This document shows positions 1 through 49,275 of a stretch of DNA of 64,000 bases, one piece after another. Under the pieces are notes generated by a model, which made no database searches, had not been told where the DNA came from, and was given only the letters and a program-made list of their open reading frames with translations. A program made the position numbers and the translations under genes. Source of the DNA: Styela clava (lineage: Eukaryota); the NCBI RefSeq assembly GCF_964204865.1, contig NC_135250.1:11160001-11224000 (forward strand). Direction: 5' to 3'. Numbering within the stretch: the stretch's first letter is position 1; the number at the start of each line of letters is the position of its first letter.

Positions 1-302
1 TTTAAAAGCATGCCACACAAGGAGAATAAATGTCATTTTGTAGTTGTTGAATAAGGTATTAAGGTCGATATCTTATTATAATTTTCTTATTTTTTTCTGA
101 TGTAGGGAAATTAGCTCTGGACGTAAACACGAATAATCATAAAGCAAAGTTTGGGTATTTTCGTGACCTACACATTGAAATCTGTGTGCCTTTTTGAATT
201 CATATCAAAATGATGCCTGTTTATTAGCCACGTTAAAAATCTTTGATTCTGTAATATCCATTCGATTAGCATATTATCTATATTGTTTTGAAACTTTGTT
301 TA

Positions 303-7751
<7,449 letters not shown>

Positions 7752-24187: not shown

Positions 24188-27100
24188 TCATGGACAAAAC
24201 AACTCAATAAAAAAAGGTCTCCTGATCATAATTAACATGCCACCAATGAGAAGCACCCCATAGAATATGTTTTTAACAACAATAAACTAATAGAAAATAT
24301 ATCATACCATTGTGAGGTGGAAGGAACGCTCTTAATTTGCTTTGAAGCATCTCGACAAATTTGATTCAACAGTGTCTTGACAGCTATGATTGATGCATTC
24401 TAAAAATATGTCAAATTATAGAGAATTCAAACTGCTCAAACTTTCTCCAGTGAGGTAACAAAAACCAAATAGTTTAACGTTACTTTCTACTATATCCAAG
24501 GATAGGATTTTTGCATTAAACTTAATAGAAAACAAGATGAAAAATACAGATTCAAACAATAAGGCAAACCCACGGCCTCTCATGTGGGGATCTGACAAAG
24601 AAGCTATGTAGCTTTTGGCCTAGTTTATCTCTGTCCTTCCTAGGTCATTTTGGGTTGTAAAGTAGTTGAAGTATTAGACTGAACTATGATTGCACTACAG
24701 CTAGGATTGGGTATTCTAAAATACCATTTAATTTCAGAATCCACTAGAGTAGTTTTTTCGACTCCAATCTCGAATACCACAAAAATACATAAATTATTGA
24801 AAACATAGAATCCATCACTCATCAATTCACTGAGTTGACACATATGAGTTGACATAAATTAAGAAACATGTTTCACTAACATCTCACCGGGAATACAATA
24901 TTCACAGGTCAGAATTACATTGTAAAAAATAAGTCTCCAATAATGAGGAATTCATCTCAACCATAGGTGGACAAAATGGCGACATGATATAATTTCTTCC
25001 ATATCAGTGGCTTATTGTGTGCAGTACCATGTTTGAAGCAAAAAGCTTATAAATACATCACATAAATAAATATCAGTTCACTATAACACAACATCATAGT
25101 ACACAAATGGACATTATGGACTTTCCAAATAGACTGCAACTAGAGTCGAAATATGTTTACTTATTCAATAGCAATCATAGTATCTACCTCTGGTTCTGTT
25201 GGATTGAACTTTGTTACTTGATCGAAGAAAGGATGATGAATTGAAACATGCAGTGAAGCACATTTATCTTCATCACAAAGGAATTGTACCAACTGTAAAA
25301 AAGATATTGACATTCAAAGAAACATGTATAGCGCTTCCTGCACTAGTAAGTAAAACTACAATAGGATAGAATAAGATTTTTCAAATTTATCACAAAGGAG
25401 TGAAAAGTCAATGAGACAGCTTAATCATATGGCGAACCACGACCGCCCGTCCAGTCACCAGGCCGTGTTGGGTATTAGATTATTTAACCAGTTATTTGTT
25501 TCAGATGCATGGACTTGATGGAGGAAGGCGTTACCAACCAGTGGGTACGCGAAACACCCTTCAATTGAGAGTGCAGCAACCCTCTCACATGTAATTATAC
25601 CCCACATTAGTCGAACCTGCGAACCCACTCTGAGTAACCAGAGGTGGGATAGCGAGCATATTCCTAACGCTTATATAAAATGATCATATACTATAATATC
25701 TATCCAATATTGAATATCTAATTTTTTTTAAATATGTCATTCCATGGTTAGTAAGGGAACAACGAAAATGACAATTTTTAAGAACTAACCTGCACTATTT
25801 CAGGTCTACACTTTGTTTTCAAATGTTCAAAATGAATATCTTTCAGTTTCTCTTTCTGCTTTGTTTTCGTCTGTTTCTTTGAGGGATCAAGTTGAGCATT
25901 TGATGCATAATTCACAGGAAATCCAGTAGCCATCTCAAATACAATTTGGCCTACATCGAAATTAAATTTTCAGAGACATTTAGAAATTTCATGAACAAAG
26001 AGATAAATTATACATAGACATTCGATATCGTGGATGTTTATGGTAGTACGAAAATATCTTTTCTTTGGCTTGGCGGTGTGGTATTTTGTGCTAAGCGTTA
26101 GGAATACACTCGCCATCCCACCTCTGATTAGGCCCGAATCATGTGGGAATAATTATGTAAGAATAAATTGCTGACTCCTCGCCGCTGTAGGGTGGTTCAC
26201 GTAACAGCTGGTAAGTTATGGCTTTCGCAACTAGCAAGTCCATGCATCTGAAAACAAATACCGGTAACTGGCTAACTAATCCCATACCCAGCATGGACTG
26301 ATATCAGGACGAAAGGCCGTGGTTCGCCAAATAATTAGGCAGTCTTATCCTCCCTCATGGGATAAATATGCATATCCTATCCTAATTTGAGCAGTATAAT
26401 GATTTATTCGAAGTTTTGTCGTCGAGTTAATCACAACACTGAACTTAGTTACCAATGCTTCATCTTACCAACTGCATTGAGTGTTGCCCGATCATCATTC
26501 GATTCCTGAATGTACTTCGTTCTCATTTGTACAAGTTCGATTTCATAGCCAGATAATTTACAAACTCCTTGATCGATAAATACATTCCGAGCATGTAACC
26601 AATGATGAGTCTAGTTAAAACAAGACCTATCATCAGAATTTATTGTATTCAATCAAGGATTGCCAAAATTAACCACATTTTGAAATAGTATTGGTAAATA
26701 TGGAGTATCGAAAATATTTTAAATTGGGCCATTTTCAAAAAAGAACAAATACAAGGTGACCCAATGAAGGGAACTCATAAATACCAATCACTTTTTATTT
26801 AATTTTCATCATTCAATAAATAAAGAACGTTAGGTCATACTGTCAAACTGTTCAAATTGATAATTCCTCTCCCAAAACATTCTAGTTTATTTATAAAATC
26901 AATAATTTGAAATACAGAATATATTTAATTTCGAATCAATGTGATAATTTTATTAGTATTTCAACATCCCTAACAAAAAAAGACAGTGTAAACATACCAC
27001 CTTTTTCATTGGGAAACGAAGTTTATCCAAAAATATTAATCCGAGTAATATTTGCTTCGTATAAACGCATATCTTCTCCAGTGAAAAAGGTTTTCCAAAA

Positions 27101-30100
27101 TCCAATTTTTTGGGGTTCACTGTCTTTGTTAAGTGATGAAATGGTTTCTGTAAATGAACGAAATAAAATACAGTAAATAAAATTTAGCAAAATACGATGA
27201 ATGACAATTGACATTTTCACACACTTGCAAATCATTGTTGAAAACAATTATGGTCATTTTGAGTTGAACACAGCAACGTTAATTTGTGAGGGGTGAGATT
27301 TTTTGAGGGAAAGGGCGAATGTTGTATTTCAAAAAAAAAAATATATTAAAAATATTATAAAAAAAATTATGCTTATTCAAAGCTGGTATCTAATCATAGT
27401 TGGAAGCAATATTCGTTAAAGTATTTCACTAAAAACTTACAGGTGTTTAAAAATAAAAAATTTACGTTTTCCTCCTTTCTTGAAACACCATGAGCAAAAG
27501 AACTCGAATTTATATCTAACTTTAAACATTTATAAAAAGTTTATATTCCATATAACAACAGTTAATTTTTGGTTCAGATGTCTGAAGTATATAAGTTGAT
27601 AATCAATAAAATGATTTAAACTGAAGTGAGTAGATATACCCGAAATCCACATTGATTATTATTGCCTATTAATCATCGATATTTTGAGAGTAAAATATGA
27701 TAATACATTAGATACATAGTCCAAGCTGGCTGCTAGTGGGTATCATTTCACAATCATTGATGAGATCACTGATACAATCACCCATGAGCAAACAGTAACA
27801 ACATCCAGACCCATTCAGGAAATGATATTTTTGATTAGTATGGCACAATGTACGTAATTGAAACTGAGAAATTTTAGAATTGCTTTTTATGACTGATTGA
27901 AGAATTCAGATAAAATTGTCATTGTATTACTATATTCAAAAAATTTTATTCTTTCATTTGTATATTCCTGGATAATGTAGCCTAAAACTAATTAGACACT
28001 TATGACAATGATTTTCATTTTAAAAGTGTAAATTTTGCATTAAAAATTAAATTGTTTGAAAAGTCATTTATTGAATAGTAATACTCATTTGGTAGATTCA
28101 ATTATAATCCATACAATTTCTGTCAATTTGATTATTGAATTTGATTCATTTTGATTGCAAATCATGATGGAATTGGAATTGCTAACTGATTCATTTTGTC
28201 CTTTCTGACGTACCATACCAAGCATCTGATCATGCATAGAACCACGGGACTTGTATTCATTGAGTACAAGTAATGTTTCCCTGTCTGTCTGGTAGTTCAG
28301 ATCAAAAACAGGTAACAGAAAAGGACACGACTCATCTTTAATGCTGTGAAAATAGGTTATACCATTTGCTGGGTGATATGATAATTAGAGATTAATTAAC
28401 AAGACAAGAGTTGATAACGTGATGACCTTTGTTGCGCATGTGAGAAAAATGCTTGCATCTTGTTGGAGATAATAAAAAGTTCGTCAAATTATTTGAAAGA
28501 ACTACACTCGCAAGGGGAAGGGCTTCATGACCGAAACAAGTCTAAATATCTAGAGAAATGGCAATAACTATACCTTGTAAATTTACTAACTCGCTTAGAC
28601 AAGAATAAATCGCTTTCCATAAAGAGCAATAGTTGTAAGCTTTAGTTACGATTATAAAATTCTAATTTATCACTACCATGCTATGCCATTCAAGCATCTC
28701 CGTAGGATAGGTATTCGAAGTAGGAAGAACTAGTACTCAATATACAATATCTTAATATCTGCAGTTAGGTAGAATTGGAAACATTTCAAAAAAGTTTGTA
28801 ATTTCATTTATAGTAAATAAAACCTCATGTGAGGTTTCAAGCAGCAAATTAACCAAAAGAAAGCTCAGAAATGGGAAAATCCACTTCCGTTTATATTAGA
28901 AAATTTGGACATAAACCTTGCATTGACAGTATGTTAACAACAGCTCAGAATATGGGTAAACAGAGTACGCAGATAAACCCTTATTGGTCAAGCAGACATT
29001 TGAAATAAAACTGGTCGGTCACCGTCGCAGCGTAATCTTATAATTGGCGCATCATTGTTTAATAAGAAAAGTGGGAAATTTTTATGAAATAATGGTAATA
29101 GCATCATAATGATAGTTTTGTATTTAATTAGTTTAAACTTACGTTAGCAAAATATCAAGCATGCTTTCCAGTACATTTTCCCAATTGCCTTTAGTAAAAT
29201 TGGATAACTTTGGTCGACAAGATATTTTCAATATGCATTTCCCTCTAGCTGAAAACATGAAAATCACAATTAAAATAAAATATTTAAAAAAAATAGCCGA
29301 GCAGCAAGAGTCAAATAAATCCAATTCTAGAAAGCAGAGGCATATTAGAAAAAGCATCTCAAAGATTGTAAGAATCCAGTTTACTAGTCAGTACAGGTAC
29401 AAAAAAAATTTTCATTAAGCTATCAGAGCTAAATTTCATCATTTCACTGAATATCATATTCATGACAAATGCAAGTATGGTTGAATTGGGTAGTATTGCC
29501 ACTGTCAGGTGACTGATACACAAAATGTCAAGCAAGGAACAAAAGGAAAAAAGAAGCTTACAATAAAATTCATGTTTGCACGGTTTTGGAATATTTTTTT
29601 AGTAAATATATTAAAATAGGACTAACATCTTGTCAAAATTCCTCCACTTTCTCGTTTTGCTCTTTCTGTATCTCGTAACGCAAACCAGTAAGTACTTGAA
29701 CGGCTATCTGTGAATAAAAACAAAATAATTATTCGTAGTATCGTACCATTATGAATCAACAAAATTTTAAAGTGATAATTTTATACAAAATAGGATGGGA
29801 TTTTTACATATTTATCCCGGGGGAAAGGACAACCGATGAGACGGCTTAACCATATGGCGAACCACAGCCTCTCGTCCGGTTACCATTCCATGTCGGGTAT
29901 GGGATTAGTTAGTTACTTGTTTTCGAATGGAGGAAGCCGTAACCGACCAGTGGTCAAGCAATCTCTCGCATATAACCATCCTTGCATGGGATTCAAACCT
30001 GCTAATCAGAGGTGCGGTGGCGAGCGTATTCCTAACACTTAGCACGATGAGCCACACCACCGCCTACTGATTTCTTCACATACAATACATAATTTGTAAT

Positions 30101-33100
30101 ACAATAGGAGAAATATTTACAAAAATCGTCAAGATATTTTGTGAGTGATAATGTTTCTCAACCCAAATATAAGTGTGTGACTCAACAAGTATAAGTATAA
30201 AAAAACACAAAGTGACTGAAGCTTAATAACATACATCTGCTCAAATACTGCAAACACAATTTTTTTAAAATAAAATTGGTGCATTCACCAACATTTACAT
30301 TCAAAATGAAATAGCAGAACGTTTAAGGTAGGGGTGGGCAACCTTTTTCGGCTCGCGTGCCAAAATCGGCTACACGTGCCGACCAAAATTGAAAACAATG
30401 CTTTTCAACTTTCAAAGAAAAAATATACAATATTAAACCTTTTAAACATGTAGAGACAGATTCACTATTCTGGGAAAGTTTCGCCCAACAAATAGATTTG
30501 ATTATTTTCTTATTCTATATCAGTAAGACTTCTGCTGCTGTATTAGCCTGATAGTTACATTGGGTTTATATTTAGTAAGGAAATACATGAATTACTGGTT
30601 TCATCTTTCAGGCCACTCCTGTTATACTAGACTTGATGAATTTCATAACTGAGAACAGAGGTACACAAACAATATGTAAATGAAAACATGGAGAGTAATG
30701 CAGTTGCAAAGTTTTTAAGACACGCACACCAAATTTTCAGCAATGGCATCCCAATTACGCAATAGTTCGTTTTCTGCACTTCTCTCTTGTATTCCCTTCC
30801 CTAATCGCTTATATTTCTTTCAAAATCAATTTATAGCAGTAAGTTAGCAAGTACCGGTAACTCTAACCAACATGAGCTATACAACTTATTAAATCAAGCA
30901 GAAATGAGGAATAGGGTGGCACAGACGAACTATATTGCGCAATGTAGCCAAATAAATGCAGTACTCTTCTCGACAAAATTTATCGTGAGCTCACTCATTT
31001 GTTATTTCATAATATATTTCTTTGTAGCCATATGCTACTAAGGACTACTAAATAAATAACGAATTGTTAACAAACGATAATAAATAAACGAACGCCTAGT
31101 TTCATCAGATAATTCAGAGTCTTGAACTTTTTATCTAAGGGAGAATGATCTCGTTTCCGGGGCCTCCTCACTCGCGTGCCGAATAAATGGGCTCGCATGC
31201 CAAAGCCAGGGGTTGCCCACCCCTGGTTTGAGGTATTCAACAAACAGAGATGGAGTCCATGCCACTGGAACTTATTGTTTGTTCTATAGTCATTGTGATC
31301 AATTATGCTGAAAAGTTTATAGAATACAATTTTTTTGGTAAAATCAATCAAATTGGTTGAAAGTTAGGTAATTCTGATTGCATTCACTTTGTACTGAAAA
31401 GTAATTTTAAATATTAATATTATTTACTCTTAAGATAGAAATATCACCAAATCAAATTACCTATTTGTTTGTAAGATTGTATAAACTCTAATTTACTCAA
31501 ATGTCGCAAGTAATATTGACAGCTCATCAATGCATGATCATATCCTGTTAAAATAAGGTTGTATGAATAAATTTCTGTTTGCAGTTGAAATATTTAAAAT
31601 CAATGTATAATTAAATATAAGAAAACGATTGATCTTTCAATGTCTAACGTCAGAAAAAATCAAATATTGAATGCATATATAGGAAAATAAGAACTAAGTA
31701 ATAATTAGGAAAGGCAATATTAGTTTTAAAAGTCACCTAGATTTTGATTACAAAACATTTACTCAGGTTGTTTGGAACATATTCAGAAAAAACATAACTT
31801 CTGTGCAAAGCATCATAGATTACTGGAACTTTTGGGTACAATCAACGCAAACAGATGTTCAGGTGATCAATCAATTTTCTGCATTTCTGTACAAATAATC
31901 AAGAAATCAATAGATTTCATATTTTTTTTCCGGGTCACCCTGTACGTATTGTCACAATTCACACGAAAGCAAACGACATATCAATAAATTGTTCAAAAAT
32001 GGAAACAAAACTTTATTCAAATTTCTGTCAGATAATAAATCACCTTGATGGGAAGTGGAAAAGTCGGTTCCTTGTTGATGCAACAGCAACGAATTTTCAT
32101 CAAGTATTAATGTGTATTCAGATTTTTTTCTGAAATGAAAAAAAAACAAAGAGTAGAAACAGTGGATGAAGATTTGATAATGAATAACTCTCATGTTTAA
32201 CTAATTTTGATCACTTGATTTAATTGTTCCATTTAGCAGCTTATAATATGTGTCAAGTAGTAATGACCTTATTTTGGAATATAAATAAGTAAGGTGTGAC
32301 ATTGTTAGCATGAGCACTATCTGGTTATTTTCAAACACTTATCCATACATATGCCATTGGTAGCTTCCACTGCTTGGTCATAGTTAGGTTTGGTTCAGCA
32401 TTTTCTAACCAATTCATTACCCCTGGGTAAGGGATTTGAACCAGAGATTTTAACAAACCACAAGGATTTACAAGTCTCAATGATGAAACCTATAAATTTT
32501 CATATGCTTTTTACACAATATGCTAGTTTGTGCATTTGGAAAAATGCAGCCGAACACCAACAAGATATACCTTAGTTCTCCTCAAGTATAAAAATGTATG
32601 GTTGATAATCGAATAGAAATAGTGTCTAAAAATAGTATATACCTTTTAGGTGCGGCAAGCATGACTGCATTAATTAGTACTATCTACTTCAATTGATTAA
32701 TTAATGCATAGTATTATCCCTGCGTTATTATTGAATATTGATTGACCTGAAGCAAGCTGTATTATACCTATAAATATGAGAACTCACCTGAACATGCATA
32801 AAATCACTATATATAGAAGTTGAAATAAAACAAGGGCTGAGATTCCTATAAACACCTAAAATAAAATATTTTTTTGATTCTGTTAAGACTAATTTCAGGC
32901 AATTACCAGAAAAGAGTTAAAAAAATTTTACCAGACTAAATCTGAGATGTTAAAATCGATGTTATTAAAAACAACCGAAGATATATCAGGAATGTTTGAT
33001 AGCAAATTCCATGGAGCCCACTAATGAATATACTGTGTGCAAATCCCAAAGTACCAAATAAAGCTGCCATGCAAGCTTGTAGAAAACACTAATTTCATTC

Positions 33101-33175
33101 TTATGAAAGAATGTTGACACAAAAAATTAGCATTTACCTACTTACCCAAGAGTTTTGCCTTACTATGTCCCACAT
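24188..33175 (-). CDS. Slowpoke-binding protein (Slob)/PXK-like pseudokinase with N-terminal transmembrane helix (~422 aa)
   Basis: Thirteen phase-consistent exons: 33175-33146, 32855-32788, 32129-32044, 31544-31461, 29707-29627, 29248-29143, 28343-28214, 27147-26998, 26610-26469, 25950-25790, 25292-25188, 24399-24308, 24221-24188. Motifs CQYYLR, CPFLLPVFDL, SRGSMHD, KQILLGLIFL, WLHARNVFIDQGVCKLSGYE, GQIVFEMATG and HPFF. The last exon is least certain. Confidence 0.75.
25365..25672 (-). mobile_element. tRNA-derived SINE copy (degenerate)
   Basis: Reverse complement aligns along the length of the 53466 copy (atatggcgaaccac, gcatggacttg, cgaacctgcgaaccca, ttcctaacgctta). Confidence 0.85.
26068..26384 (+). 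mobile_element. tRNA-derived SINE copy
   Basis: ggcggtgtgg...gctaagcgttaggaatacactcgcca...gggataaatatgcatatcctatccta. Confidence 0.85.
29790..30063 (-). mobile_element. tRNA-derived SINE copy with internal deletions
   Basis: ataggatggga...tttatcccggggg...catatggcgaacca...gaggtgcggtggcgagcgtattcctaac...gagccacacc. Confidence 0.88.
30329..31225. mobile_element. Non-autonomous hAT element, inverted copy of the 10024-11069 family
   Basis: TIR (t)aggggtgggcaacc/ggttgcccacccctg, TSD gtttaagg/gtttgagg, and internal sequence collinear with the 10024 copy. Confidence 0.9.
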
Positions 33176-33877
33176 AAATTTGCTTTGTAGTAAAATGCAA
33201 TATGCTTTTCCGAATAGATAGAAACATCAAAGAAATGAAGAGGCATAATATAATGTTAGAAATAAAATAATTAAAACATAAAAAGAATTTCGTTACAATA
33301 CATCAAACAAGGTTTATAAATTAATCACATTTCACCGTTTTCTGTTGAAAAATCGTTCACACAAAACAAGAAAAAGAGAGCGCAATACCAATAGTAAGAT
33401 TATTCAAATGAAATACAAAACCCCAAAGTTTTTTGAAAAGATTTGCATTACAAATATTGTAATAAACATAAAATGCATAAAACACCGAAAGGATGGGAAA
33501 TATGATCAAAAGTATTCTGTTTGAACAGAGCTAACATGAGATGTAAGGTTTTGCATTGAGCTACTTCACGCTTTTCAATTGACTATATATAATAAACATC
33601 CTCTATTGGAACATTATATATCAGTGAATGCAACTCCTGAAGAAAATAAATTTGAAGCAGAATTTTTTTAAAGCAAAATATTTATTAACCTTTTTATTAG
33701 GCCTTTTTATTTTATTTTATTACAATTCAGAAGAATTTACTATAGGCTACTAGAGTCAAATCCTAATCTTTCTCTATCAACTAACCTTTAGTAATCCGTA
33801 ACAATGTGCGATAAACAACTTGCTCTCAATAATAAATGAGTTGCGTATATACAATATGAATATTGTTGCGAAAGTGT

Positions 33878-34085
33878 GAGCTGGATCGCACTGTGTGGGT
33901 TCGCAGGTTCGAATCTTGTGGAAAAAATTATATGCGAAAGGATAGCTGGACTCGTCGCCTTTCATGGGGGCATCAAAAACAAGTAACTGGTTAACGCAGT
34001 TATTGTCATACCCGGTGTGGATTGATTACCGAACAAGATACCGTGGTTTGATTGACTATCCTCTCCCATGGAATAAAAATCCTGA
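33878..34085 (+). mobile_element. Truncated tRNA-derived SINE between DDA1 and the Slob-like gene
   Basis: gtgggttcgcaggttcgaatc (B-box region), ctggactcgtcgcc and aaaacaagtaactgg. Confidence 0.75.
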
Positions 34086-34118
34086 ATTCACAATAACTTT
34101 CATAACATATTTCGATAA

Positions 34119-34490
34119 TTAAGGGTACGAAGATGTAGAAACAGAGGAAGACGGTGACTGGGGTGCTGACATTCGAGGTTGTTTACGAGGTGGACCATCG
34201 GATGACAATACATCAGGATTTTTATTAGAGTCTGTGTCAACATGGTTCATTTCTTCTGAAGAACTTTTCCTTTTTTCAACGTCGCCATTCAATTTTTTAT
34301 CAAGTTGAAGATATAAATATCGCAATAAAATATTACTTCTGTCGGAAACTATTACTTGTTCTACTGGTTGATCTTCCGTAGAAAGATAAGAAGTCAATTT
34401 TTTGGCAGTTTTGCTCGAGTCGGATTTAAAATTTGAAAAATTGTTCGGATTCTGAGAAGGTAAACCTTTCAGCATGCTTTTTCCAGACAT
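34119..34490 (-). CDS. DDA1: DET1- and DDB1-associated protein 1, intronless
   Basis: LKGLPSQNPNNFSNF...YLSTEDQPVEQVIVSDRSNILLRYLYLQLDKK matches the DDA1 family signature. The ATG is immediately preceded by a tttcag acceptor. Confidence 0.9.
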   Translation of the reverse strand: MSGKSMLKGLPSQNPNNFSNFKSDSSKTAKKLTSYLSTEDQPVEQVIVSDRSNILLRYLYLQLDKKLNGDVEKRKSSSEEMNHVDTDSNKNPDVLSSDGPPRKQPRMSAPQSPSSSVSTSSYP

Positions 34491-34596
34491 CTGAAACCAC
34501 AGTCTTTTACAATAAATAAATTGCAGTATAATCTAACCTACAAAAATACAAAATGTTGATAAAACACACATGAGAACAATTTTGCAACTGAAGATA

Positions 34597-36225
34597 TTAT
34601 CGAGACGTTTTCTTGCATAGGATGTAAAGAAATCTTCCAGTTCTGCCTTCTGGAACATGAGTATGAAAAGCAGTGGCACAAATATTGTAATTATCCAATG
34701 GGTCATAAGCTTTCAACTTATCATACAATGAATCAAATAACAGAATCCAGTAAGGTCGATCAGCGAGGATTTTTTGACTAAAAATATTATTATCAAGCCA
34801 CTCAATAGGATTACTATGAAACTGATCTGCTTCGTCACTATAATTCTTTATACCAGAAAGATTTGGAGGGCAAGTTAGGAATCTTGTGGTCACATTCAAA
34901 TGAAGATGGGAATATAGTGGTGTAGTATGACATGGCATCAGGTATAAGACGCTTCCAGGACAATTAGAAATGCAATTTTCAGCAAGCAAATCTTTCAATT
35001 TATCAGTTATTTCCAATGGACCTCTTTGATGAATGAGTCCGGTATACAAGGCCACAGGTACATTTGTAATCAATAGAAATATTAACGATGTGTTTCTCAT
35101 TTTTTTTGAAAATGTTGACAAACTAATACCAGAGAAAAGAGACGCTATTGGAACAAGATGAAGAACAAATCTAAATTCCTTGTGTCCAAGAAAACTATAA
35201 ACTAAAACAGTGAATAAGAATAGAGATAACAAACATTTGCATATTTTTAAATTTTCTGTAGATAATTTAGCAGGAAATGTATGTTTCATTACAAAAGCAG
35301 CACCAAAGATGAAAAATATCATTTGAGTGGTAAGGATAGCAGGTATACCTTGAGTGATATACCAATGCCAGGGATGAGTGCCATAATGCACACCCATATC
35401 CTCCATAACATTGAATTTAAAAAAGTTCCATGGCACAAATACGAACTTACCATAATAAAATAAATCAATTAAAGTGGACGTTATCAAGACAAAGAAAGAT
35501 TGGACTACATATGACAGAAATACCATTGCATTGCGGCTTCTAAATATATGCCATAAAGCTAATGGTACCCAAATTACAGCAGCTGTTGGTCTAATTACAG
35601 TAATTAATATAGCGATTAATTGATAAATTGCTACTTTGCTAAGATACCAGTGGGCAGTATTCCAAGGATAATAATACAATCCAATACATAACAGATTAGT
35701 TTCGAATGTATTTATTATTGTCCTTGTGGAGCAATACCACCAAAACCAGTTTATACAGTTGCATAGAATTCCGTAATTCGCAATTTCATAACCAAAATAA
35801 AGCTTCACAAATTTATAAAGATATACATCACCAATTGCGCTCAAGAAAGCTTGAAACAACCTAGGACCATATATAAGTGTCACAGGATTATCAATGCCAA
35901 GAGAATTTAAAATTTGATATATCCCAGAAAAAATAGCAGGATAAATATAACTTCGTAGTCCATATTTCCATTCCCATGTTAGATATCCATACCCAAAAAC
36001 AGACTTGTAGGCAACTTCTAATGACTGCCAATATTCATCAGGTACAAATGAAGTTCTTACTAAAAATGTATTGATGATACGAAGACAGATCAAAGACAAA
36101 ATAAGGTATTTTTCAGAATCACCAAATTCTTTATCATCAGATCTTATTTTTGTATTTGTTAACTTGTGTTGCGCCTTTATATCAGATTTGCCATCAGTCT
36201 TCTTTCTTTGAGTTAATTTTGACAT
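34597..36225 (-). CDS. PIGB: GPI mannosyltransferase 3 (Glyco_transf_22 family), intronless
   Basis: TSFVPDEYWQSLEVA, GYLTWEW, HPWHWY, HKEFRF, HQRG and LMPCHTTPLYSHLH motifs, with multiple TM segments. Confidence 0.95.
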   Translation of the reverse strand: MSKLTQRKKTDGKSDIKAQHKLTNTKIRSDDKEFGDSEKYLILSLICLRIINTFLVRTSFVPDEYWQSLEVAYKSVFGYGYLTWEWKYGLRSYIYPAIFSGIYQILNSLGIDNPVTLIYGPRLFQAFLSAIGDVYLYKFVKLYFGYEIANYGILCNCINWFWWYCSTRTIINTFETNLLCIGLYYYPWNTAHWYLSKVAIYQLIAILITVIRPTAAVIWVPLALWHIFRSRNAMVFLSYVVQSFFVLITSTLIDLFYYGKFVFVPWNFFKFNVMEDMGVHYGTHPWHWYITQGIPAILTTQMIFFIFGAAFVMKHTFPAKLSTENLKICKCLLSLFLFTVLVYSFLGHKEFRFVLHLVPIASLFSGISLSTFSKKMRNTSLIFLLITNVPVALYTGLIHQRGPLEITDKLKDLLAENCISNCPGSVLYLMPCHTTPLYSHLHLNVTTRFLTCPPNLSGIKNYSDEADQFHSNPIEWLDNNIFSQKILADRPYWILLFDSLYDKLKAYDPLDNYNICATAFHTHVPEGRTGRFLYILCKKTSR

Positions 36226-37279
36226 GCTCGGAAATTTCAGATGTAAAAATTATTAACACCAAATGAATAAAGCTGAAAAAACGAAACGAGAGGTTGAATA
36301 ATGCCCGAATTTGTTTCACTTGTTACAAATTTTACAAAGAAAAAAAATCAACGAAGTACCGGCATGTGTTTCATGATTGAATTCACACAACCATTGTCGA
36401 AATAAGCGACATTATCAACTCAGTATTCCAATGAATGGAAACAATAATCAGCAATACCAAAATGGTCCACTATTCGACTAATGTGAAAAATACCATAGGA
36501 TAGCAGAATTATTCTAAAAATTCTGCTAAATGATAATATAGAAAAAAGGGCAATATGTATATAGAATAAAATATAGAGAAAGATTCTCACAGTCGCAAAG
36601 TGGGAACAAAATAAAAATAATGAAGTTTAAAACAAATTTGGTAGTGAACATACAACTGAAAAGAGTGGTGCATGACTCAAAAAAGACAGAACATTGTAAT
36701 TTTTTTTTAAAGGCCTTATTTTACAGTATTTAAAGTATTAATAGTTAGTTCACTTCGAGTATAGAGCACTGATAAAGACTTTGCTGCATCATCAATATCA
36801 TATTAGATATTTTTAAACAGTTTAGCATTTTCAAAGCCTTCAAAAAGGAAAGAGAGTAGGCTAAAATAGAAAAGATGAGACAGCATATAGTTTTTTGGTA
36901 GTGGATATTGTAGTGTTAGATTGTCAGTCCAGAAGTATTTCTAGAATAAGGAAAAATTCAGAATTGTCTCAAATTTTACATTGGAAAAACTGATTTTGAT
37001 TGTCCCACTCCCAACAATAAAAAAAATATTAGCGAAAAGTATTACCAGTAGTACTATAAAAGTACATATACTAGCCATGCATTGAACAGCAATCATCTCC
37101 TAATCCTATATCTGACTTTGATTTGCAGTTCGTCAGACAATAACATATGCCATTCTGGTTGTCCCATTTGAGGTTGAAGACTGGCTACAGTATTACAATA
37201 ATGATTTTAAAGATTTTAACCAATTGAACACAAATCACAACAAAAAAGTTGAAAGCACAGAAAGTGTATGCTGAGATGA

Positions 37280-38557
37280 TTATTTCAACATTACCACTGC
37301 AAAAACAGTGCTTTCTCTTGATATCAGATCACTGTTCTGGTCAAAAAGTTTTTCTTGGTGGCCAATGAGATTTATGAAACCACCAATTTCTCCCATTCCA
37401 TATATTCCCAAGAGCGGAACATTTGGAATCATTTTTCTAAATGCTTCTTGTTCAAGATTACGTGGAACGTCTGCAAAATCATCAGTATCTTCTTCAACGT
37501 ACCATTCTTGAGGATTAGCACGAGAGCAACAAGCTACCATAAAGCCCAAAGTTTGCGAATTACAAGATGCACAATGGCCAAATTTATTTTTGAATTTACA
37601 CATATTTGGGCAGTTGGCACCAAAAGATTTTACAGTTTCCCGTAGCGTTTCTAAACATGCATTTAATTCTTTGATAGTGTCAACATGAGATCCTACCAAA
37701 ACTGATGCAGAACGTACATTTTTACCTTTAAAAGATACTATTACATAATCTTGAATACCATTGGTACTATTGGCTGGTCCATTATCAGGATTAAAAATAA
37801 TTAAAGTTTCGAAAATGCACCCAATAACAACAACCCCACGACAAGCTGCCGGCTTCAGTATATTCTTGTGTAAAGGTGACAAAGATGAATCTTTTGAAAC
37901 TACTGACACAAAAACTAACTTGGTGTCACAATGTTCAAGTTCGTCACCAACAGTTTGAATAAACTTATCATGATCCTCACTTGAATGTTCTTCTTCCAGA
38001 TTGAAATAATTGACAGAAAATAAGTTTGATAAACTCTGTGGAAATGATATATAATTGAAAACATCACTGATATCATCAACAATATTCTCTATTGAAGCTT
38101 TCTCACTATCCACACATACAACACTGTACACTGACCTTAGAGTTAGTAATTTATTCGCAGGTGGAAGCCAATATCGTATCATATTTTCATGATCATAATT
38201 GAAACTATTGATTATACGATCATTTGACATAGAGACAGATATCCCCGCGGTCGGTGCACAATGCCATTCTTTTCTCCACTCAGAAAATTCTTTGTACATA
38301 CTGGAGTTCTTTTCCCATGTCATTTGTCTGTTTGATCTCTTGAATTTTACAGTTTGTTTATCCTCATCACAATTTTTCACATAAGTGATATATTCCACTT
38401 GATTCACACTTTTTCTCCCACGAAGAACATCTGCAGAGCAAGATTTCCATGATTTACAAACTGATTGTAAACGTAATAAATCTCTGGCCGACAAAAAACT
38501 AAATATCCTTTCCAGAACTAATGGTATATTTGTCAAAACATATTCGACTTTTTCCAT
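37280..38557 (-). CDS. FBXO22: F-box protein with FIST C-terminal domain (FBXO22-like), intronless
   Basis: N-terminal F-box (VLERIFSFLSARDLLRLQSVCKSWK) and FIST-C motifs GFMVACCSR and EQEAFRKMIPNVPLLGIYGMGEIG. A t9cag acceptor at ~38572 precedes the ATG at 38557. Confidence 0.85.
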   Translation of the reverse strand: MEKVEYVLTNIPLVLERIFSFLSARDLLRLQSVCKSWKSCSADVLRGRKSVNQVEYITYVKNCDEDKQTVKFKRSNRQMTWEKNSSMYKEFSEWRKEWHCAPTAGISVSMSNDRIINSFNYDHENMIRYWLPPANKLLTLRSVYSVVCVDSEKASIENIVDDISDVFNYISFPQSLSNLFSVNYFNLEEEHSSEDHDKFIQTVGDELEHCDTKLVFVSVVSKDSSLSPLHKNILKPAACRGVVVIGCIFETLIIFNPDNGPANSTNGIQDYVIVSFKGKNVRSASVLVGSHVDTIKELNACLETLRETVKSFGANCPNMCKFKNKFGHCASCNSQTLGFMVACCSRANPQEWYVEEDTDDFADVPRNLEQEAFRKMIPNVPLLGIYGMGEIGGFINLIGHQEKLFDQNSDLISRESTVFAVVMLK

Positions 38558-40028
38558 TTTATAAGATACTTCTGAAAAAAAAATAACAAGCATAGGATAT
38601 AGTTACAATTACAAGCATATAAATGAAAATCATTAATAACTCATTTAAAACTAATAATACCAACAGGAGATAATTTTAAACAAATATGGATATGGGATCC
38701 TTGATTCAAGCCCATTTATAAATCACTATCCATTTAGAGTGGAAAAATAAAGTCTAACAAGACATTTCAAAATCCACTTTTCTAAAGCTTAACAAGACCT
38801 GGTGGTATCAAATCAAAACTCTATATCCCAAACATATATCATTATAATTAACTTAGTTGTGAAATCAATTACTAATGTATTAGAAAATTGAACAATACCG
38901 GTAAATGATTTCAGTCAAAACTTGGGCACAAATGAATAAATACAAATATTGTGCCATTTTGGATGTGTTTTGCACGTGCTTTATCAATGAGAAATTAGTG
39001 CCTTTTTAAAGTATATAGATTAATTACGGAAAAATAAATTGCCGCCACACACAAAATATAGTTTTGTTCAACCACAAGTTATCTATATAATAAGAGTTGT
39101 CAATGACAGCAAGTTTCAAATTAATTATATTCGAGGTACAAACATAAGAGTGCGACTCGTTAGAAAATTATCGCTTAGGTGTTCAAATGTTAAACTTACA
39201 CTTAAAAATTTATGTATTTGACAAAAACACGCAGACAAAAAAAATTACAAAATAATCCACCAAGCACTGCAGAAAAGTATAGTCACATTTATTATTAATA
39301 CACCACAATAACCAATGATCCTACACCGACATCGTTTTGCTACAAGGTTTTACAAATGGCCTTCTATTAGGTAATAAGGTTGGTTGAACAGGGAACCCAA
39401 CTTTGTGTTAACCTAGTTGAAAATACACTGCTCCGACTATGAGATGTGGATGAAGACATCTAGCAAATCATTGTCAGATTTCATCATGCTCAACAAAGAC
39501 CATTACTGGCATAAAACAATAATTTTTTAGTAAATTTAGTTATAGATCATTATTTAAGTACCTTATTTAAAGAGATTTCAATTATATCAATTGCAGCTCG
39601 TTAAGGCAGTTTATCATAAATTAGATACTCGGTTGGAAAGTGGCATAAAGTTACATACAGACAATAATGACACAAGGCAAAAATATATATATATTCGCAA
39701 CTATAGTATGAACTAGTATATGAAATAATAAAATCAGCTTTATTCCCATGTGTTGAATTTGTAGTTTCAACAAACGAGAAAAATTACAAGAAATTACTGT
39801 TTCATATAATAGATGAGGAAAGAAGATGAATTAATGGTACAATGGAAATGATATATATTCACAGTAAATTATACATCTAAAAGTACCAAATGAAAGAGAC
39901 TTTATATTTGTTCTCACACCATAAATGTTGCAAACATACTGCGGATAACAATAACAATCAAAGTTAGAGAAAAATCACAACAACAGACCTATGATAACAA
40001 CATGTATCACAGAACAACGGAGAGAATT

Positions 40029-41093
40029 CTAGCCTTGATCATCTTTCCATCGTTGTGGAGCAATATGTCCAACCAAATAAATATTATCATACAAATGTCC
40101 TGCAAAATCAGAATCAACCGCCGCAATTGCCTGAATTGGCCCTATATTCTCCTGGGGCATCCCTCTTCTATTTTGTAGTTGAATATTGCCTTGGGCGTGT
40201 TGTCTACTGTATTCCACAACCGCTGAACGAACATTGCGTACAAATTCCCGTTTTGACATTTTATTTTTGACCTGTGGACTAGTCAAATCAACAGAGAGTA
40301 ATATAAGAGAGTAACACAGTATCGCAACAATCTCAGGTACAAGAGCAATATCAGGATTATCGTTGCAAAATCTCACAGCAAACTTATCAATGAGCAAATT
40401 AAGATATTCACCTCTTGAAATCGGAGCATCGACTGCCTGGAAAAATTTTCTCAATGCATTAGGAAGGAACTGATTTTTAAAACTTTGCAACTTCAATAAC
40501 TCATCTAACACGTCATTTCGAGTGTTCAGATATTGACGTACTTTTTGCCAGACTAGTTGATTTGTTCCATGGAAAAACATGGCAATCTCAGAGGCATTAT
40601 CATCGAGGATGTGATTTTCAAAAAGGTATTTCATGCCCCATAAAGGCTCTGCGTTAAATGTGAGACTCCCTTCATCAAGAAGTAGATAAAGCTTTTTAAA
40701 TGACTTCCCTTCATCTTTCCATGACTTGTAGGCCGTACAATAGGCCCACGAATTTTTACAAAGACCTTCCCATAACATCTCATCATTTGCTAAATCAGAC
40801 CAAACACATGCAGCTAGGCATAAATCAGTTGCATTCAAATTTTTTAATACTTCTATTCCAATCTCAGGCGGCAACAAGTACAAATCGGGAAACTTTTCTA
40901 GCACATCTAGTCGACAACCTTTTGAACTATTTCGAAAGTTTCTTGCCCGCCGATGTTTGAAGATTTGCCACAAATATCCAGGTCTGTACAGATGGCTTGT
41001 CCCATTTTGACCGCCGTTGTTTAATCCACTGCGAGAAGGTGATGGAAAGGAACTTCCAACGCCATGGGTTTCACGTGAACTAAGTTGTCCCAT
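40029..41093 (-). CDS. FBXO8: F-box only protein 8 (F-box plus Sec7 domain), intronless
   Basis: MGQ start, LPPEIGIEVLKNLNATDLCLAACVW, LDEGSLTFN, FLPNALRKFF and LCYSLILLSVDLTSPQVKNKMSKREFVRN. Confidence 0.95.
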   Translation of the reverse strand: MGQLSSRETHGVGSSFPSPSRSGLNNGGQNGTSHLYRPGYLWQIFKHRRARNFRNSSKGCRLDVLEKFPDLYLLPPEIGIEVLKNLNATDLCLAACVWSDLANDEMLWEGLCKNSWAYCTAYKSWKDEGKSFKKLYLLLDEGSLTFNAEPLWGMKYLFENHILDDNASEIAMFFHGTNQLVWQKVRQYLNTRNDVLDELLKLQSFKNQFLPNALRKFFQAVDAPISRGEYLNLLIDKFAVRFCNDNPDIALVPEIVAILCYSLILLSVDLTSPQVKNKMSKREFVRNVRSAVVEYSRQHAQGNIQLQNRRGMPQENIGPIQAIAAVDSDFAGHLYDNIYLVGHIAPQRWKDDQG

Positions 41094-42015
41094 TGGTGTA
41101 TTAATTAACTAAGTCATTATAATACTGCATAATATATAGATATTCATTTTTAAAAGGATTCAAATAGTTCCATAATCAGTTTTTATTCGCATGATTTTTA
41201 TCTATCATTTTATCGCTTGCTTACTACAGTACTATGCTCACTATGGAGTCGCAATAAAATTTCTCATTATTGTAATTTAAATTGTGGATTCAGCTTATAG
41301 GATACTTGTAGCAGAATTTATTTGTTTGCCAAACCAGAAATCTAAGTTATACCGTACAGTTACCGGTATATCAGTATATGTATATTATAGTATATACCGG
41401 GCCTACATACAAAACATAAAGAATTTAAGTTTTTGATAAATGCAGAAATGATTGGTTAGTAACCATAGGGTCGTTGAGTGAGACAATTGAAGCATGTTAC
41501 CAATGCTGCAATGAAACACAAGTCTACAAGGGTTACAAGTAGACTACATAAATAAAAACAGAAATACTTTTACAGTTTCAATATTCTGATATTAATCAAC
41601 TCTCAACATCTCGCCTTAACTTGTGAACCATGCCCAAATGCAGTACGCTTTCGGTCTTTAATAATTTTGTACCATGAGCAATTTTTCCGCACGACCAACC
41701 GAAATACTGCGATTGCTAGTACCAGTAGTCAGATATCAGGATATTGCGTGTTTGAAAAGCTGACTCGCAGCTGTTTTATTTGCGATACCAGTACCTAATC
41801 TATACTGGTAGTAGTAGATACCTTTTTTGGTAATGAACAATTGATTACGGTATCCTATAACAAAGTGTTTCTAGGGACATTGGACCCATAACCAGAAAAC
41901 GGTACGGAGTAGTACGTTACCCTATTCACAAAAACATAACTAATGCACGAATAAAACCAGACCACAACAAAAGAAAATTGTCGAATATTGCGAAAAACTT
42001 TTGCAAGAATGACCT

Positions 42016-42350
42016 TTAGCGAGAACGAATTTTGGCACCTCTGATTACTTTACCCTGCGTGGGTTTGCATCCCATACGGCATACGCGCATACGGCAGACG
42101 GGGATAGTTATGTGTGAGAGGATTGCTGGACTTCTCGCCGCCGTAGGGTGACTCACATCTGCACGTAACCACTGGTCGGCAATGGCTTCCTCCACCATCA
42201 AATCCATGCTTCTGAAAACAATTAACTGGCGAACTAATCCCATACCCGACATTGACTGGTAACCTGACGAGAGGCCGTGGTTCGCCATATGATTAAGCCG
42301 CCTTATCGGCTTTCTTCTCCCACGGGATAAATATGTAAATCCTACCTACC
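42016..42350 (+). mobile_element. tRNA-derived SINE copy
   Basis: Collinear with the 53466 copy through to gggataaatatgtaaatcctacctac. Confidence 0.88.
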
Positions 42351-42890
42351 AGCTTAAGTAGGCTGTGTCTCAGCTGTTCAATGCCAATATTTTCCAAATT
42401 ACTCCGAAGCAAAATGAATCGCGGTGGACTCGTAAATATTGATATTATAGACACCTATCCATTGCATAACATTTAATGATAACCTTGCACCTGAACTTCT
42501 TTTCAGGGCTGTGGAATCGTGGCGAAATTTACAATCAAAGAACGCTACGGCGGTATCTCGTTATAAAAACTAGCCACCAATAATTAGGTAGCCTACATAC
42601 GAGAAACGTTATGCAAAAGTGGAAATTAATTATTATTATTTAATTAACAAAAAACGACCTCAACAAAAGACATTAAACCCAATTTAATTCAGAGACTGTT
42701 GCAGAAAAAGTTTCAGTAGTTGGCATTATCTGATTTAACTCGGCGTTCCTTTCTTCATTTTCGTTTGTTAACAATTTTTTTTTTGAATAACACATTTGTC
42801 TCTTTATGACATATGGCTTCAAAGAAATATGTTAGAATGTATCAACTAGATGAGCTCAAATTTGCTCGAGACAAGCGTAGTATTTTATTT

Positions 42891-43007
42891 GGACCTCCAG
42901 AAATCAGAAGTATGTGCACCAAGATGACACACAACCTGAAGCCTAACCGGGTACACATACTAAGTTCAGGTTGTGCGCCATCTTGGTGCACATACTTCTG
43001 GGGGACC
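42891..43007. mobile_element. Short hairpin Merlin-like MITE
   Basis: GG...CC termini, long inverted arms (cagaagtatgtgcaccaagatg/catcttggtgcacatacttctg) and 8-bp TSD ttttattt. Confidence 0.85.
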
Positions 43008-43807
43008 TTTTATTTGGCTACAATGTAGTCACCCGTACCACCATTATCTTCATTTCTGCTTGAATTATGAAATTGGAGAGCGCATTATAGTCGGAGTTGC
43101 TTGTTGACATATTGGTATAAATTGATAGAAGTCTGTTTTTCCTGACCAACTCAAATTGCTTCATTGAACACTTAGTCATCATTGAAAAATTTTCCATGGA
43201 AATTTCTGTGGTGCCCCTTCCCTTGGTATCCTAAACACGTGCTTATTTTTTCTTAGTTAATCCAGTACTGCATCTGATCACAATTGACGCTGTGTCAGTC
43301 ATCCTAAAATCTTGATTTCTTTTATAAGCAGTACAAAATTGATATATATAAACTTATCATCGCTGAATTTTTTTTTATTCCAATCTTAATTTTCCTGGTC
43401 TTTCTGCTGATTATATATTTCCTATATTCTCTTGACTGCTGAGTTTTATTTAATTTTCTGTGTTTATTGCTTCTTTTCATACTTATTTTTTTTCTGTGAC
43501 TGTTTGCCTTTGTCTGTATTTTCCCACAATTGCTTGCGAAGTATGTTTGGTGTAAATCTGGCCAATTTTTATTTTCACTGATGAATGAATGCGACTTATC
43601 TTTTTTTGACGACCTACAGCTGGCCTACTCGAGTTTTTTTGCTGTTCTCGCTTGTCTTTTTACACTTTTCATCCTCAAGCACCATGTTCGCATCTTACTT
43701 TTTTCAACTTCATCTCTGGCTGGCACATATCTCGCTCCCGCACTTGGTGGTGGTACCCTGACTGCCTGCGGATTGGCACTCGCTGATTCTTCCGACTTCA
43801 TCTATGT

Positions 43808-46878: not shown

Positions 46879-49275
46879 ATGAGTGAAAACAATTTGACAA
46901 CAGTTGAAGAGCAGGAAAGATTGCTCGATAATGCAATTCAAATTGTAAAAGCGGAGAGTTTTCAGATGAAAAGAGAGTTGGATAAAAATCATCTAATGGA
47001 TGGATTCAAACATGCCTCTACCATGTTGAAAGAACTTCGTACGTCAGCTATGTCTCCGAAAAATTATTATGAATTGTACATGGCCGTTTGTGATGAACTA
47101 CGACACTTAGAGTTGCATCTGTCAGAAGAATTTCAACAGGGCCGAGTTATAGCTGATCTGTATGAATTGGTTCAATATGCTGGAGATATCATTCCACGAC
47201 TTTATCTCCTTGTTACGGTCGGAGTTGTTTACATAAAGGCGAAACCGTCATCAAGTCGTGTCATTCTGAAAGATCTTGTTGAAATGTGCAAAGGTGTTCA
47301 ACATCCCCTACGTGGGTTATTTTTACGCAACTACCTTCTGCAATGTACAAAAAATGTGCTTCCGAATGCATCAAGCGAAGCTAGCGAGGATGACAAAAAT
47401 GAATCAACCGGAACGGTAGCAGATTCAATAGATTTTATCCTGACAAATTTCACAGAAATGAACAAATTATGGGTTCGTATGCAACATCTTGGCCATAGTC
47501 GTGAAAGAGAGAAACGTGAGCGTGAACGACAAGAGTTAAGAATTTTGGTTGGAACAAATCTTGTGAGGCTCAGCCAGCTTGAGGGAATGGATGCGAAGAA
47601 TTATCAAAATAGTGTTCTGCCTGGAATTCTTGAGCAGGTTGTGAATTGCCGAGATGCCATTGCTCAGGAGTATTTAATGGAATGCATCATACAGGTGTTT
47701 CCCGATGATTTCCACCTTCAAACACTACGCAGCTTTCTAACTGCATGTGCGAATCTGCATCAAAGTGTCAATGTCAAAACTACAATAATCGCTCTGATTG
47801 ATAGACTGGCACAATATGCATCAAGAGAAGATACATCTGGTATTCCAAAAGAAATCATGCTGTTTGATATATTTTCTGAAGAGGTGACCAAGATTATAGA
47901 AGCACGCAATCAGATGTTGTGTGAACATGCTGTGTCAATGCAAGCAGCTCTTATTAATCTTGCTATGAAATGCTACTCTGATCGAACCGATTATGTCGAT
48001 AAAGTGCTGGAAGCTACTGTGGAAGTTATGAGCCAACGAAACATAGAGATAGTGTCTAGTCGTACTCCATTATGCAAAGAGGTTACTAAGTTACTGCAGT
48101 CAATTTTGGATTCATACAATAACATACTAACTGTGTTAGAGCTAAAGTATTTTGCTCCGCTCTATGAACATCTTGATTTTGATGCTCGTAAGCAGTTTGC
48201 TTTTCAACTCATTTCTAATGCTCTGGAAAATGATACTATTGTCACTACCTCGGAGCAAACAGATACATTGCTAATGTTGGTTTCGCCACTAGTGCGAGAC
48301 CAAGCTGATCAACCGAAGGCTGAAGAGATGGATGAACAGGACTTTGCAGAAGAGCAAATAGTGATGGGAAGATTTATTCATCTGTTGCAATCTGATGATC
48401 CTGATCAACAATTTTTGATTCTTAATTGTGCACGAAATCAGTTTGGAAATGGCGGAAATGCTCGACTGCCCTATACCTTGCCACCCATTGTATTTTCATG
48501 CTTCAAACTCGCGGCGAAATTCAAGGAAATTGAAAATGAGGACGAAAATTGGGATAAAAAATGCAATAAAATATTTCAGTTTTGTCGAGCAACAATTACT
48601 GCATTATGCAAAGCAGAGTTAGCAGAACTTCCTCTCAGACTTTTTCTTCAAGGTGCTCTTGCTGCTTCTGAAATTGACTTCAGTAATCGAGAATTGGTAG
48701 CTTACGAATTTCTGACCCAAGCAATATCACTGTATGAAGAGGAAATTGCAGACAGCCGTGCCCAACTTGCAGCAGTGTTACTTATTGTTGGTACGTTGGA
48801 GCAGATAGATTGCTTCCATGAAGAAAGTCATGAACCGCTACGTACCCAGTGTGCTCATGCAGCATCCAGACTGCTTAAAAAGCCAGACCAAAGCCGCGCT
48901 GTCGCTCATGTTTCACATTTGTTCTGGTCTGGGAAAACAATTGAAAGCGGAGAAAATAAGCTTAATGATGGCCACAGAGTGATCGAATGTCTAAAAAAGG
49001 CAGTACGTACGACCAACCAATGCATGGAAACAGCAGTTCAATTGCAGCTCTTTATCGAGATTTTTGATAAATATATCTACTTTTATGAGAAAGGGTGCAC
49101 AGCAATATCCATTGAAATACTGAATCAGCTTCTGGCTAAAATCAGAGAGAACCTTCCCTCAATTGAAGAAACTGAGGAATATGATGTAATCCACATGCAT
49201 TATAACAATACTCTGAAGCATATTAGAGACCAGATGGAATCTGGAACTTCATCATATGAAGGTATAGATATATAA
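46879..49275 (+). CDS. VPS35: Vacuolar protein sorting-associated protein 35 (retromer), intronless CDS
   Basis: 798-aa ORF with [56 protein letters not shown] and [11 protein letters not shown]. Confidence 0.98.

What the first reader, a model, noticed from the sequence alone, without database searches (positions are those of the whole stretch)
24188..41130. Candidate five-gene trans-spliced operon: FBXO8, FBXO22, PIGB, DDA1, Slob-like
Seen: five consecutive minus-strand genes with stop-to-start gaps of ~1.47 kb, ~1.05 kb, 106 bp and ~0.94 kb. The four intronless CDSs each have a splice-acceptor-like site just upstream of the ATG (~41126, ~38572, ~36273, 34491). Promoter-like CpG and footprint-rich sequence is concentrated upstream of the first gene (41200-41950). 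Known: ascidians resolve polycistronic pre-mRNAs by SL trans-splicing. The operon is inferred. Three of the five products are cullin-RING ligase parts (two SCF F-box receptors and the CRL4 subunit DDA1), which is unexpected functional coherence.
Basis: partly seen in the sequence, partly recalled or inferred. Interest (0 to 1): 0.7.

Follow-up and report, generated by a model that had tools for sequence, protein, structure and literature searches.

The report
Leader-resolved four-gene sea-squirt operon
Four intronless sea-squirt genes sit end to end and each carries the same spliced-on leader tag in transcript assemblies, so they are likely read as one long RNA and cut into four messages, an ordinary arrangement in these animals; the fifth gene's membership and a shared ubiquitin role remain untested.

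Summary
The core operon is real and of a known kind. In contigs of RNA-like runs one identical non-genomic leader hangs off the acceptors of FBXO8, FBXO22, PIGB and DDA1. It equals the published chordate spliced leader and is encoded in a gene array elsewhere in the genome. FBXO8 contigs end within 3 nt of the FBXO22 acceptor in 4 of 6 runs, with no AATAAA nearby, as in Ciona operons. The 'gaps' are 3' UTRs.

Corrections: the DDA1 site seen is 34538, not 34491. No leader was seen on gene 5 (membership about 50%). The CpG signal is unremarkable. The cullin-ligase coherence is not shown: the three products are not one complex, and three orthologues lie on three different chromosomes-size contigs in Clavelina. 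Ciona has 36 four-gene and 8 five-gene operons.

Side finding outside the window: two Ty3/gypsy families carry the complete leader inside their LTRs (30 of 30 and 23 of 24 copies examined). The scan noted a similar thing before in Perkinsus, and nothing on this operon.

The parts
41127..41515 (-). Outron / 5' region of the primary transcript; the start site lies at or upstream of 41515 (inferred)
   Evidence: X5 contig runs 41515-39727 unbroken; X2 contig 41248-41488 at depth 4.7
41125..41126 (-). Trans-splice acceptor AG of cistron 1
   Evidence: 9 leader letters loose behind 41126 in X2, 1 of 4 runs
40029..41093 (-). FBXO8 CDS, intronless, 354 aa (F-box + Sec7)
   Evidence: Pfam; 58-63% identity to proteins named FBXO8 in Clavelina and Ciona
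38572..40028 (-). FBXO8 3' UTR (1457 nt), ending at the next acceptor
   Evidence: contigs end at 38570 (X1, X9) and 38575 (X2, X3); nearest AATAAA at 39293
38572..38573 (-). Trans-splice acceptor AG of cistron 2
   Evidence: 20 leader letters loose behind 38573 in X9, 1 of 4 runs
37280..38557 (-). FBXO22-type CDS, intronless, 425 aa (F-box + FIST C). The in-frame ATG at 38593 lies upstream of the acceptor, so it is not in the leader-spliced mRNA
   Evidence: Pfam (FIST_C 21.5 bits, under the 28.5 cut-off); a hit named FIST C-domain protein. The name FBXO22 rests on this architecture (recalled)
36273..36274 (-). Trans-splice acceptor AG of cistron 3
   Evidence: 10 leader letters loose behind 36274 in X9, 1 of 4 runs
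34597..36225 (-). PIGB (GPI mannosyltransferase 3) CDS, intronless, 542 aa
   Evidence: Pfam; named homologues
34538..34539 (-). Trans-splice acceptor AG of cistron 4, 58 nt after the PIGB stop
   Evidence: 23 leader letters loose behind 34539 in X9, 1 of 4 runs
34119..34490 (-). DDA1 CDS, intronless, 123 aa
   Evidence: Pfam DDA1 E 3e-21; single match in the genome
33681..33721 (-). Four AATAAA signals after DDA1; the other two internal junctions have none and FBXO8 none within 700 nt
33637..33638 (-). Best acceptor-like AG between DDA1 and gene 5; use not seen, and skipped in one contig each of X9 and X3
24288..33175 (-). Gene 5: spliced, predicted N-terminal membrane helix and degenerate kinase-like motifs (PXK/Slob-like by recall only); operon membership open
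   Evidence: introns 33145-32856, 32787-32130 and 32043-31545 joined in X1, X5, X9 but not X10; later exons only modelled

Best explanation
FBXO8, FBXO22, PIGB and DDA1 each receive the same spliced leader at an AG just ahead of their start codons and are likely transcribed as one RNA from a promoter upstream of 41515, which trans-splicing would resolve into four messages. [quoted passage not shown] DDA1 probably ends at a conventional AATAAA cluster; gene 5 is either a fifth cistron reached by read-through or a separate gene (about even odds). The gene set is most likely a lineage-limited cluster of intronless housekeeping genes sharing one promoter, not a ubiquitin-ligase regulon.
For: One leader in register at 4 of 4 intronless genes, from two studies (X9 three sites, X2 one site); it is absent from the window, equals 'Chordata 1' in PMC3795323 Table 1, and is followed by a GT donor in a tandem array on contig C8. 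FBXO8 contigs stop at 38570-38575 in 4 of 6 RNA-like runs and no listed RNA contig crosses 38572, while the DNA-like contig runs 36819-41621. Listed contigs cross 36273 in 1 of 6 runs and 34538 in 4 of 6. No AATAAA between FBXO22 and PIGB or PIGB and DDA1. Same layout described for Ciona (PMC1488885 passages; PMC2760879 section 10).
Against: Each leader site was seen in only 1 of 4 runs, as one contig; the FBXO8 site rests on 9 letters. The runs are 'RNA?' by guess (supported by spliced joints) and are contigs, which cannot show starts, ends, strand or a single molecule. Internal promoters are not excluded. FBXO22 contigs stop 4-42 nt short of the next acceptor in 5 of 6 runs, so exact abutment is shown only at one junction. 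No leader seen on gene 5.
Confidence: 0.85

Rival explanations
1. Tightly packed but independent genes: each has its own promoter inside the upstream gene and is trans-spliced as a monocistronic pre-mRNA.
For: About half of Ciona genes are trans-spliced and most are not in operons (PMC4691747 and PMC1488885 passages). CpG o/e rises locally near 38751-39250 and 36001-36750 (0.85-0.87). Contigs cannot map start sites.
Against: FBXO8 3' ends coincide with the FBXO22 acceptor without a poly(A) signal; only 58 nt separate the PIGB stop from the DDA1 acceptor; PMC1488885 argues that such abutment requires transcription across the boundary.
Confidence: 0.12
2. Full five-gene operon, gene 5 being trans-spliced between 33637 and 33183.
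For: RNA-like contigs cover DDA1 to gene 5 exon 1 without a gap in X3 and to 33207 in X2; a good acceptor at 33637; each proven site was itself seen in only 1 of 4 runs, so a miss is weak.
Against: No leader among 12 of 14 loose-end rows shown; four AATAAA after DDA1; 12 upstream ATGs between 33637 and the start codon; the AG at 33637 is skipped in one contig each of X9 and X3.
Confidence: 0.45
3. The operon is kept by selection to co-express cullin-RING ligase parts.
For: 3 of the 4 leader-bearing genes are ligase parts; for this one class chance gives 0.0004-0.05 cases per Ciona-like operon set (assumed shares 1-5%). FBXO8, FBXO22 and PIGB relatives at 71, 37 and 50% identity each lie on a Logan contig of 48,406 bp, probably the same one. 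The two F-box genes are not a tandem duplicate (best E 1.5).
Against: Different cullin systems (recalled). The Clavelina orthologues lie on contigs of 28.8, 26.5 and 15.7 Mb. The linked core in the relative includes the non-ligase PIGB; none of 3 DDA1 relatives found is on that contig. 15 of 32 stop-free F-box hits in this genome lie in frames of 280 codons or more, so F-box genes are often intronless here, the class that fills operons. 0 papers hold all three gene names.
Confidence: 0.12

Closest known systems
Ciona intestinalis SL-resolved, intercistron-less operons (Satou et al. 2006 PMC1488885, passages; Satou et al. 2008 PMC2760879, passages and section 10)
   Same: Same-strand genes, one leader on downstream cistrons, upstream 3' end at the acceptor AG, no AATAAA, many single-exon genes, first gene may itself be trans-spliced; 36 four-gene and 8 five-gene operons are listed.
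   Different: A different, 24-nt leader; a 377-Mb genome; 3' UTRs of 1.0-1.5 kb; four single-exon genes in a row. This particular gene set was not found in print (0 papers each).
C. elegans SL1-type operons without intercistronic DNA (as described in PMC1488885 passages)
   Same: Abutting cistrons resolved by the general leader.
   Different: Those keep AATAAA in the upstream cistron; here only DDA1 has it.
Retrotransposon-associated leader copies in flatworms (PMC12582326, one passage) and SL on Hydra transposon transcripts (PMC12220107, passage) - for the side finding
   Same: Leader sequence at LTR/LINE loci, read as retro-copied trans-spliced RNA.
   Different: There the leader pieces are partial and were discarded; here the whole exon sits at one fixed place in both LTRs of two unrelated families.

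Membership tests
Ciona-type SL-resolved operon | Consecutive same-strand genes | tested here: met
Ciona-type SL-resolved operon | Spliced leader on downstream cistrons (genes 2-4) | tested here: met
   loose ends at 38573, 36274, 34539 in X9
Ciona-type SL-resolved operon | Spliced leader on gene 5 | tested here: inconclusive
   none among 12 of 14 rows shown, 4 runs
Ciona-type SL-resolved operon | Leader encoded by SL RNA genes (exon + GT donor) elsewhere | tested here: met
   129 exact exon+GT matches, most of the 100 listed in an array on C8; 7 of 7 array copies read have TATA upstream and a GT donor
Ciona-type SL-resolved operon | Upstream mRNA 3' end abuts the downstream acceptor (under 100 bp) | tested here: met
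   FBXO8/FBXO22 within 3 nt in 4 of 6 runs; FBXO22/PIGB within 4-42 nt or crossed in 6 of 6; PIGB stop 58 nt from acceptor
Ciona-type SL-resolved operon | Poly(A) added at the acceptor G | tested here: inconclusive
   X9 contig has 6 extra letters after 38570 that were not printed
Ciona-type SL-resolved operon | No AATAAA within 40 nt of upstream 3' ends | tested here: met
   met at the three internal junctions
Ciona-type SL-resolved operon | Single promoter, one polycistronic primary transcript | not testable with these tools
   only contigs available; needs CAGE or long nascent reads
Functionally coherent (ligase) operon | Linkage conserved across ascidian orders | tested here: not met
   three Clavelina orthologues on three different contigs of 15.7-28.8 Mb
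Functionally coherent (ligase) operon | Excess over chance within this genome's operons | tested here: inconclusive
   rough model only, shares assumed
PXK/Slob kinase-like family (gene 5) | Profile or sequence match to the family | tested here: inconclusive
   single exons gave 0 hits; the spliced protein was not searched

The most novel reading that the evidence does not exclude
A lineage-specific ubiquitin-ligase operon: one promoter doses two SCF receptors and the CRL4 subunit DDA1, the cluster is held together by selection in one ascidian order, and competition between trans-splicing and 3'-end formation at each junction sets the ratio of the ligase parts.
Probability: 0.12. Interest if true: 0.55.

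Novelty: new member of a known kind. Interest (0 to 1): 0.27.

Why it matters
It extends the abutting, AATAAA-less operon design described for Ciona to an ascidian with a different leader and a larger genome, and gives three junctions with long 3' UTRs on which the open question of how the upstream 3' end is made can be tested. As a class it is expected. If the ligase coherence held up it would be a rare functional operon in a chordate. The leader-in-LTR side finding may matter more: it suggests how an LTR element copies itself when the host replaces the 5' end of its RNA.

Tried and rejected
No run is on record as RNA; 9 holders are 'RNA?' by guess, of which 6 were laid, plus 1 of 4 DNA-like holders. 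Contig depths differ between cistrons but were not used to rank expression. The loose-end table was swamped by the repeat at 41842-43092 (932 rows hidden), so X1 and X5 were not scored for leaders. A 23-letter loose end at 38536 in X6 does not match the leader (it looks like a sequencing adapter, recalled) and was dropped. Joints to 42100 with sides of 18-26 letters were dropped as repeat matches. CpG island as promoter marker: rejected (Ciona lacks CpG islands per PMC4691747 passages). Tandem duplication of the two F-box genes: rejected. A second F-box pair at C2:14.28 Mb: only one long ORF there, cyclin-F-like by recall. Rfam: 0 hits in the window and two array loci. Gene 5 identity: Pfam 0 of 5 exons, PDB 0 for 1 exon, no paralogue in the genome for 1 exon; it stays open. 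Metagenome scan for the leader: 2 short contigs, both SL-gene-like, no synteny data. A cap-derived G in LTR copies: not claimed for family 2, because the one copy without leader has the same G. Papers read without bearing: PMC9911081 (passages). PMC2860165 was not held. Supplements were not opened; the Ciona operon list of PMC2760879 could show whether these orthologues are in operons there.

Full report
Observation. The four intronless minus-strand frames and their gaps are as described. Pfam gives F-box + Sec7, F-box + weak FIST_C, Glyco_transf_22 and DDA1. Named homologues confirm FBXO8 and PIGB, with tunicate proteins the best named hits for FBXO8. FBXO22 is named from its F-box + FIST layout (recalled). 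The window lies on a 32.7-Mb contig of a 377-Mb genome.

Leader evidence. Six RNA-like runs from three studies and one DNA-like run were laid. All are contigs. RNA status is a guess by the tool, but three gene 5 introns are joined in X1, X5 and X9 and not in X10, and cover at 43093-43500 is 0-1 in the three. In one search the same non-genomic letters hang off 34539 (23 letters), 36274 (10) and 38573 (20) in X9 and 41126 (9) in X2, each exactly at an AG 14-47 nt before a start codon. Each site shows in 1 of 4 runs. The leader is not in the window and equals the 'Chordata 1' leader in Table 1 of PMC3795323 (passages). The genome holds 129 exact copies followed by GT, most of the 100 listed in a tandem array on C8; the 7 array copies read have a TATA box upstream and a 24-nt exon preceded by T. 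The extra 5' G on the DDA1 contig is therefore not templated by those genes and is likely a copy of the cap (inference). The DDA1 site seen is 34538, not 34491.

Junctions. FBXO8 contigs end at 38570 (X1, X9) or 38575 (X2, X3); X5 and X6 stop at 38626 and 38604. No listed RNA contig crosses 38572, while X10 runs 36819-41621. The nearest AATAAA is 721 nt upstream. FBXO22 contigs end at 36277-36315 in five runs and cross 36273 in X3. PIGB contigs cross 34538 in X1, X2, X3 and X5; X6 passes it by 16 nt. So the 'gaps' are 3' UTRs of 1457, 1007 and 59 nt. If two mRNAs abut, words across the joint can only come from precursor RNA or DNA; the DNA background looks low but is not zero. This is the layout in PMC1488885 (passages): 19 operons with directly juxtaposed cistrons, poly(A) on the acceptor G, and 16 of 18 without AATAAA. 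One X5 contig reaches 41515, which places the start at or beyond it. The CpG claim fails as a marker.

Gene 5. RNA cover is continuous from DDA1 into exon 1 in X3 and nearly so in X2 and X6, but no leader shows among 12 of 14 loose-end rows. DDA1 alone is followed by four AATAAA. The best acceptor (33637) is skipped in two contigs and leaves 12 upstream ATGs. Membership is about even. An open model of about 430 codons exists but was picked among 2960 stop-free chains, and only the first three introns have RNA support. The Slob/PXK likeness is recall only.

Coherence. For the single class 'cullin-ligase part', with an assumed share of 1-5% of operon genes and Ciona's operon sizes, 0.0004-0.05 such operons are expected; over 50 comparable classes 0.02-2.7. 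This neither shows nor excludes selection. FBXO8, FBXO22 and PIGB relatives each sit on an unnamed contig of 48,406 bp, probably one contig; order was not seen. In Clavelina they lie on contigs of 28.8, 26.5 and 15.7 Mb (FBXO22 orthology from a full-length match at 24% identity). The DDA1 search found only 3 relatives, none on that contig. F-box genes are often in long open frames here (15 of 32 stop-free hits of 43 matches), and other intronless genes (VPS35, a CBF/NOC4-type gene) are in the same window. In Ciona 38% of operon genes and 60% of first genes are single-exon, and operon members were found not to be tightly co-expressed.

Mechanism. Shown: leader addition at four acceptors; the FBXO8 3' end at the next acceptor; SL genes elsewhere. 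Inferred: one promoter, one precursor, 3' ends made by the trans-splicing cut, DDA1 ended by AATAAA. Open: gene 5.

Side finding outside the window. The leader search also gave 60 dispersed copies, many in same-strand pairs 5.0 or 6.5 kb apart (control 0). These are the two LTRs of Ty3/gypsy-type elements (protease-RT-RNase H-integrase order in family 1, RT-RNase H-integrase in family 2; primer-site and purine-tract positions). The two families share no BLAST similarity in the flanks tested. Family 1: 30 of 30 LTR copies read carry the whole leader (29 exact; the best 30 of 40 listed, 192 candidates). Family 2: 23 of 24 (21 exact; the best 24 of 40 listed). Copies are not independent, and the queries came from leader-bearing elements. 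The leader lies between a pyrimidine tract and a second acceptor-like AG. In family 1, 3 copies have it joined directly at that second AG, and 2 (both LTRs of one element) have it joined at the leader's own internal AG. That is what retro-copied trans-spliced RNA would leave. Likely reading (inferred, about 50%): the host replaces the 5' end of the element's RNA with the leader, and a leader copy in the LTR keeps both RNA ends alike for strand transfer. Precedent: partial leaders at LTR/LINE loci in flatworms (PMC12582326, one passage), leaders on about 30% of Hydra transposon reads (PMC12220107, passage), and C. elegans Cer1, whose full-length RNA was not trans-spliced (PMC3315495, passages). 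Four searches listed no paper on a fixed leader in tunicate LTRs; most listed papers were seen as titles and abstract starts only. The scan's own unchecked notes report the same in Perkinsus and leader-headed LINEs in this genome.

Verdict. A real four-gene, possibly five-gene, leader-resolved operon: a new member of a known kind, interest 0.27.

Noticed in passing
G000, e.g. L006 (C1:17975500-17984500), L007 (C1:23216500-23224000), L020-L049, L054-L077: Two unrelated Ty3/gypsy families carry the complete host spliced-leader exon at a fixed place inside both LTRs (30 of 30 and 23 of 24 copies read), with variants that match trans-splicing at neighbouring AGs. It may let a trans-spliced RNA do strand transfer. 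Probably more interesting than the assigned finding (about 0.55-0.6) and worth its own follow-up.
   Followed up: partly
G000:C8:about 4.23-4.58 Mb (L014, L015): Tandem SL RNA gene array: 1634-bp unit, TATA box, 24-nt exon, GT donor; some units are interrupted by long ORFs; the intron parts differ between L014 and L015; no Rfam hit.
   Followed up: partly
L084, L088-L091, L094, L095: Leader copies outside the two LTR families (8 of 20 further matches read were classed 'other'; L092 looks like a shortened family 2 copy). They may be retro-copied mRNAs or other elements.
   Followed up: no
window 41109-41117 (-): Two-codon upstream ORF between the FBXO8 acceptor and its start codon; the AG at 41109 could be an alternative acceptor that skips it.
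   Followed up: no
window 36095-36229: A strongly diverged haplotype of the PIGB 5' end (about 20 changes in 135 nt) is present in RNA-like and DNA-like runs.
   Followed up: no
window 46879-49275 (+) and 16965-18521 (-): Further intronless housekeeping genes: VPS35 (divergent from FBXO8, 5.8 kb away) and a CBF/Mak21 (NOC4-like) gene tail to tail with a spliced gene at about 14801-16825 that looks like NDUFA5 (recalled).
   Followed up: no
window 41842-43092: Very high-copy repeats (summed contig depth above 40,000 in the DNA-like run) directly upstream of the operon's 5' region; related pieces at about 33880-34050 lie in the DDA1 3' UTR.
   Followed up: no
window 300-6070 (-): Exons that read like a GH9 cellulase with Thr-rich linkers (recalled, not tested).
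   Followed up: no
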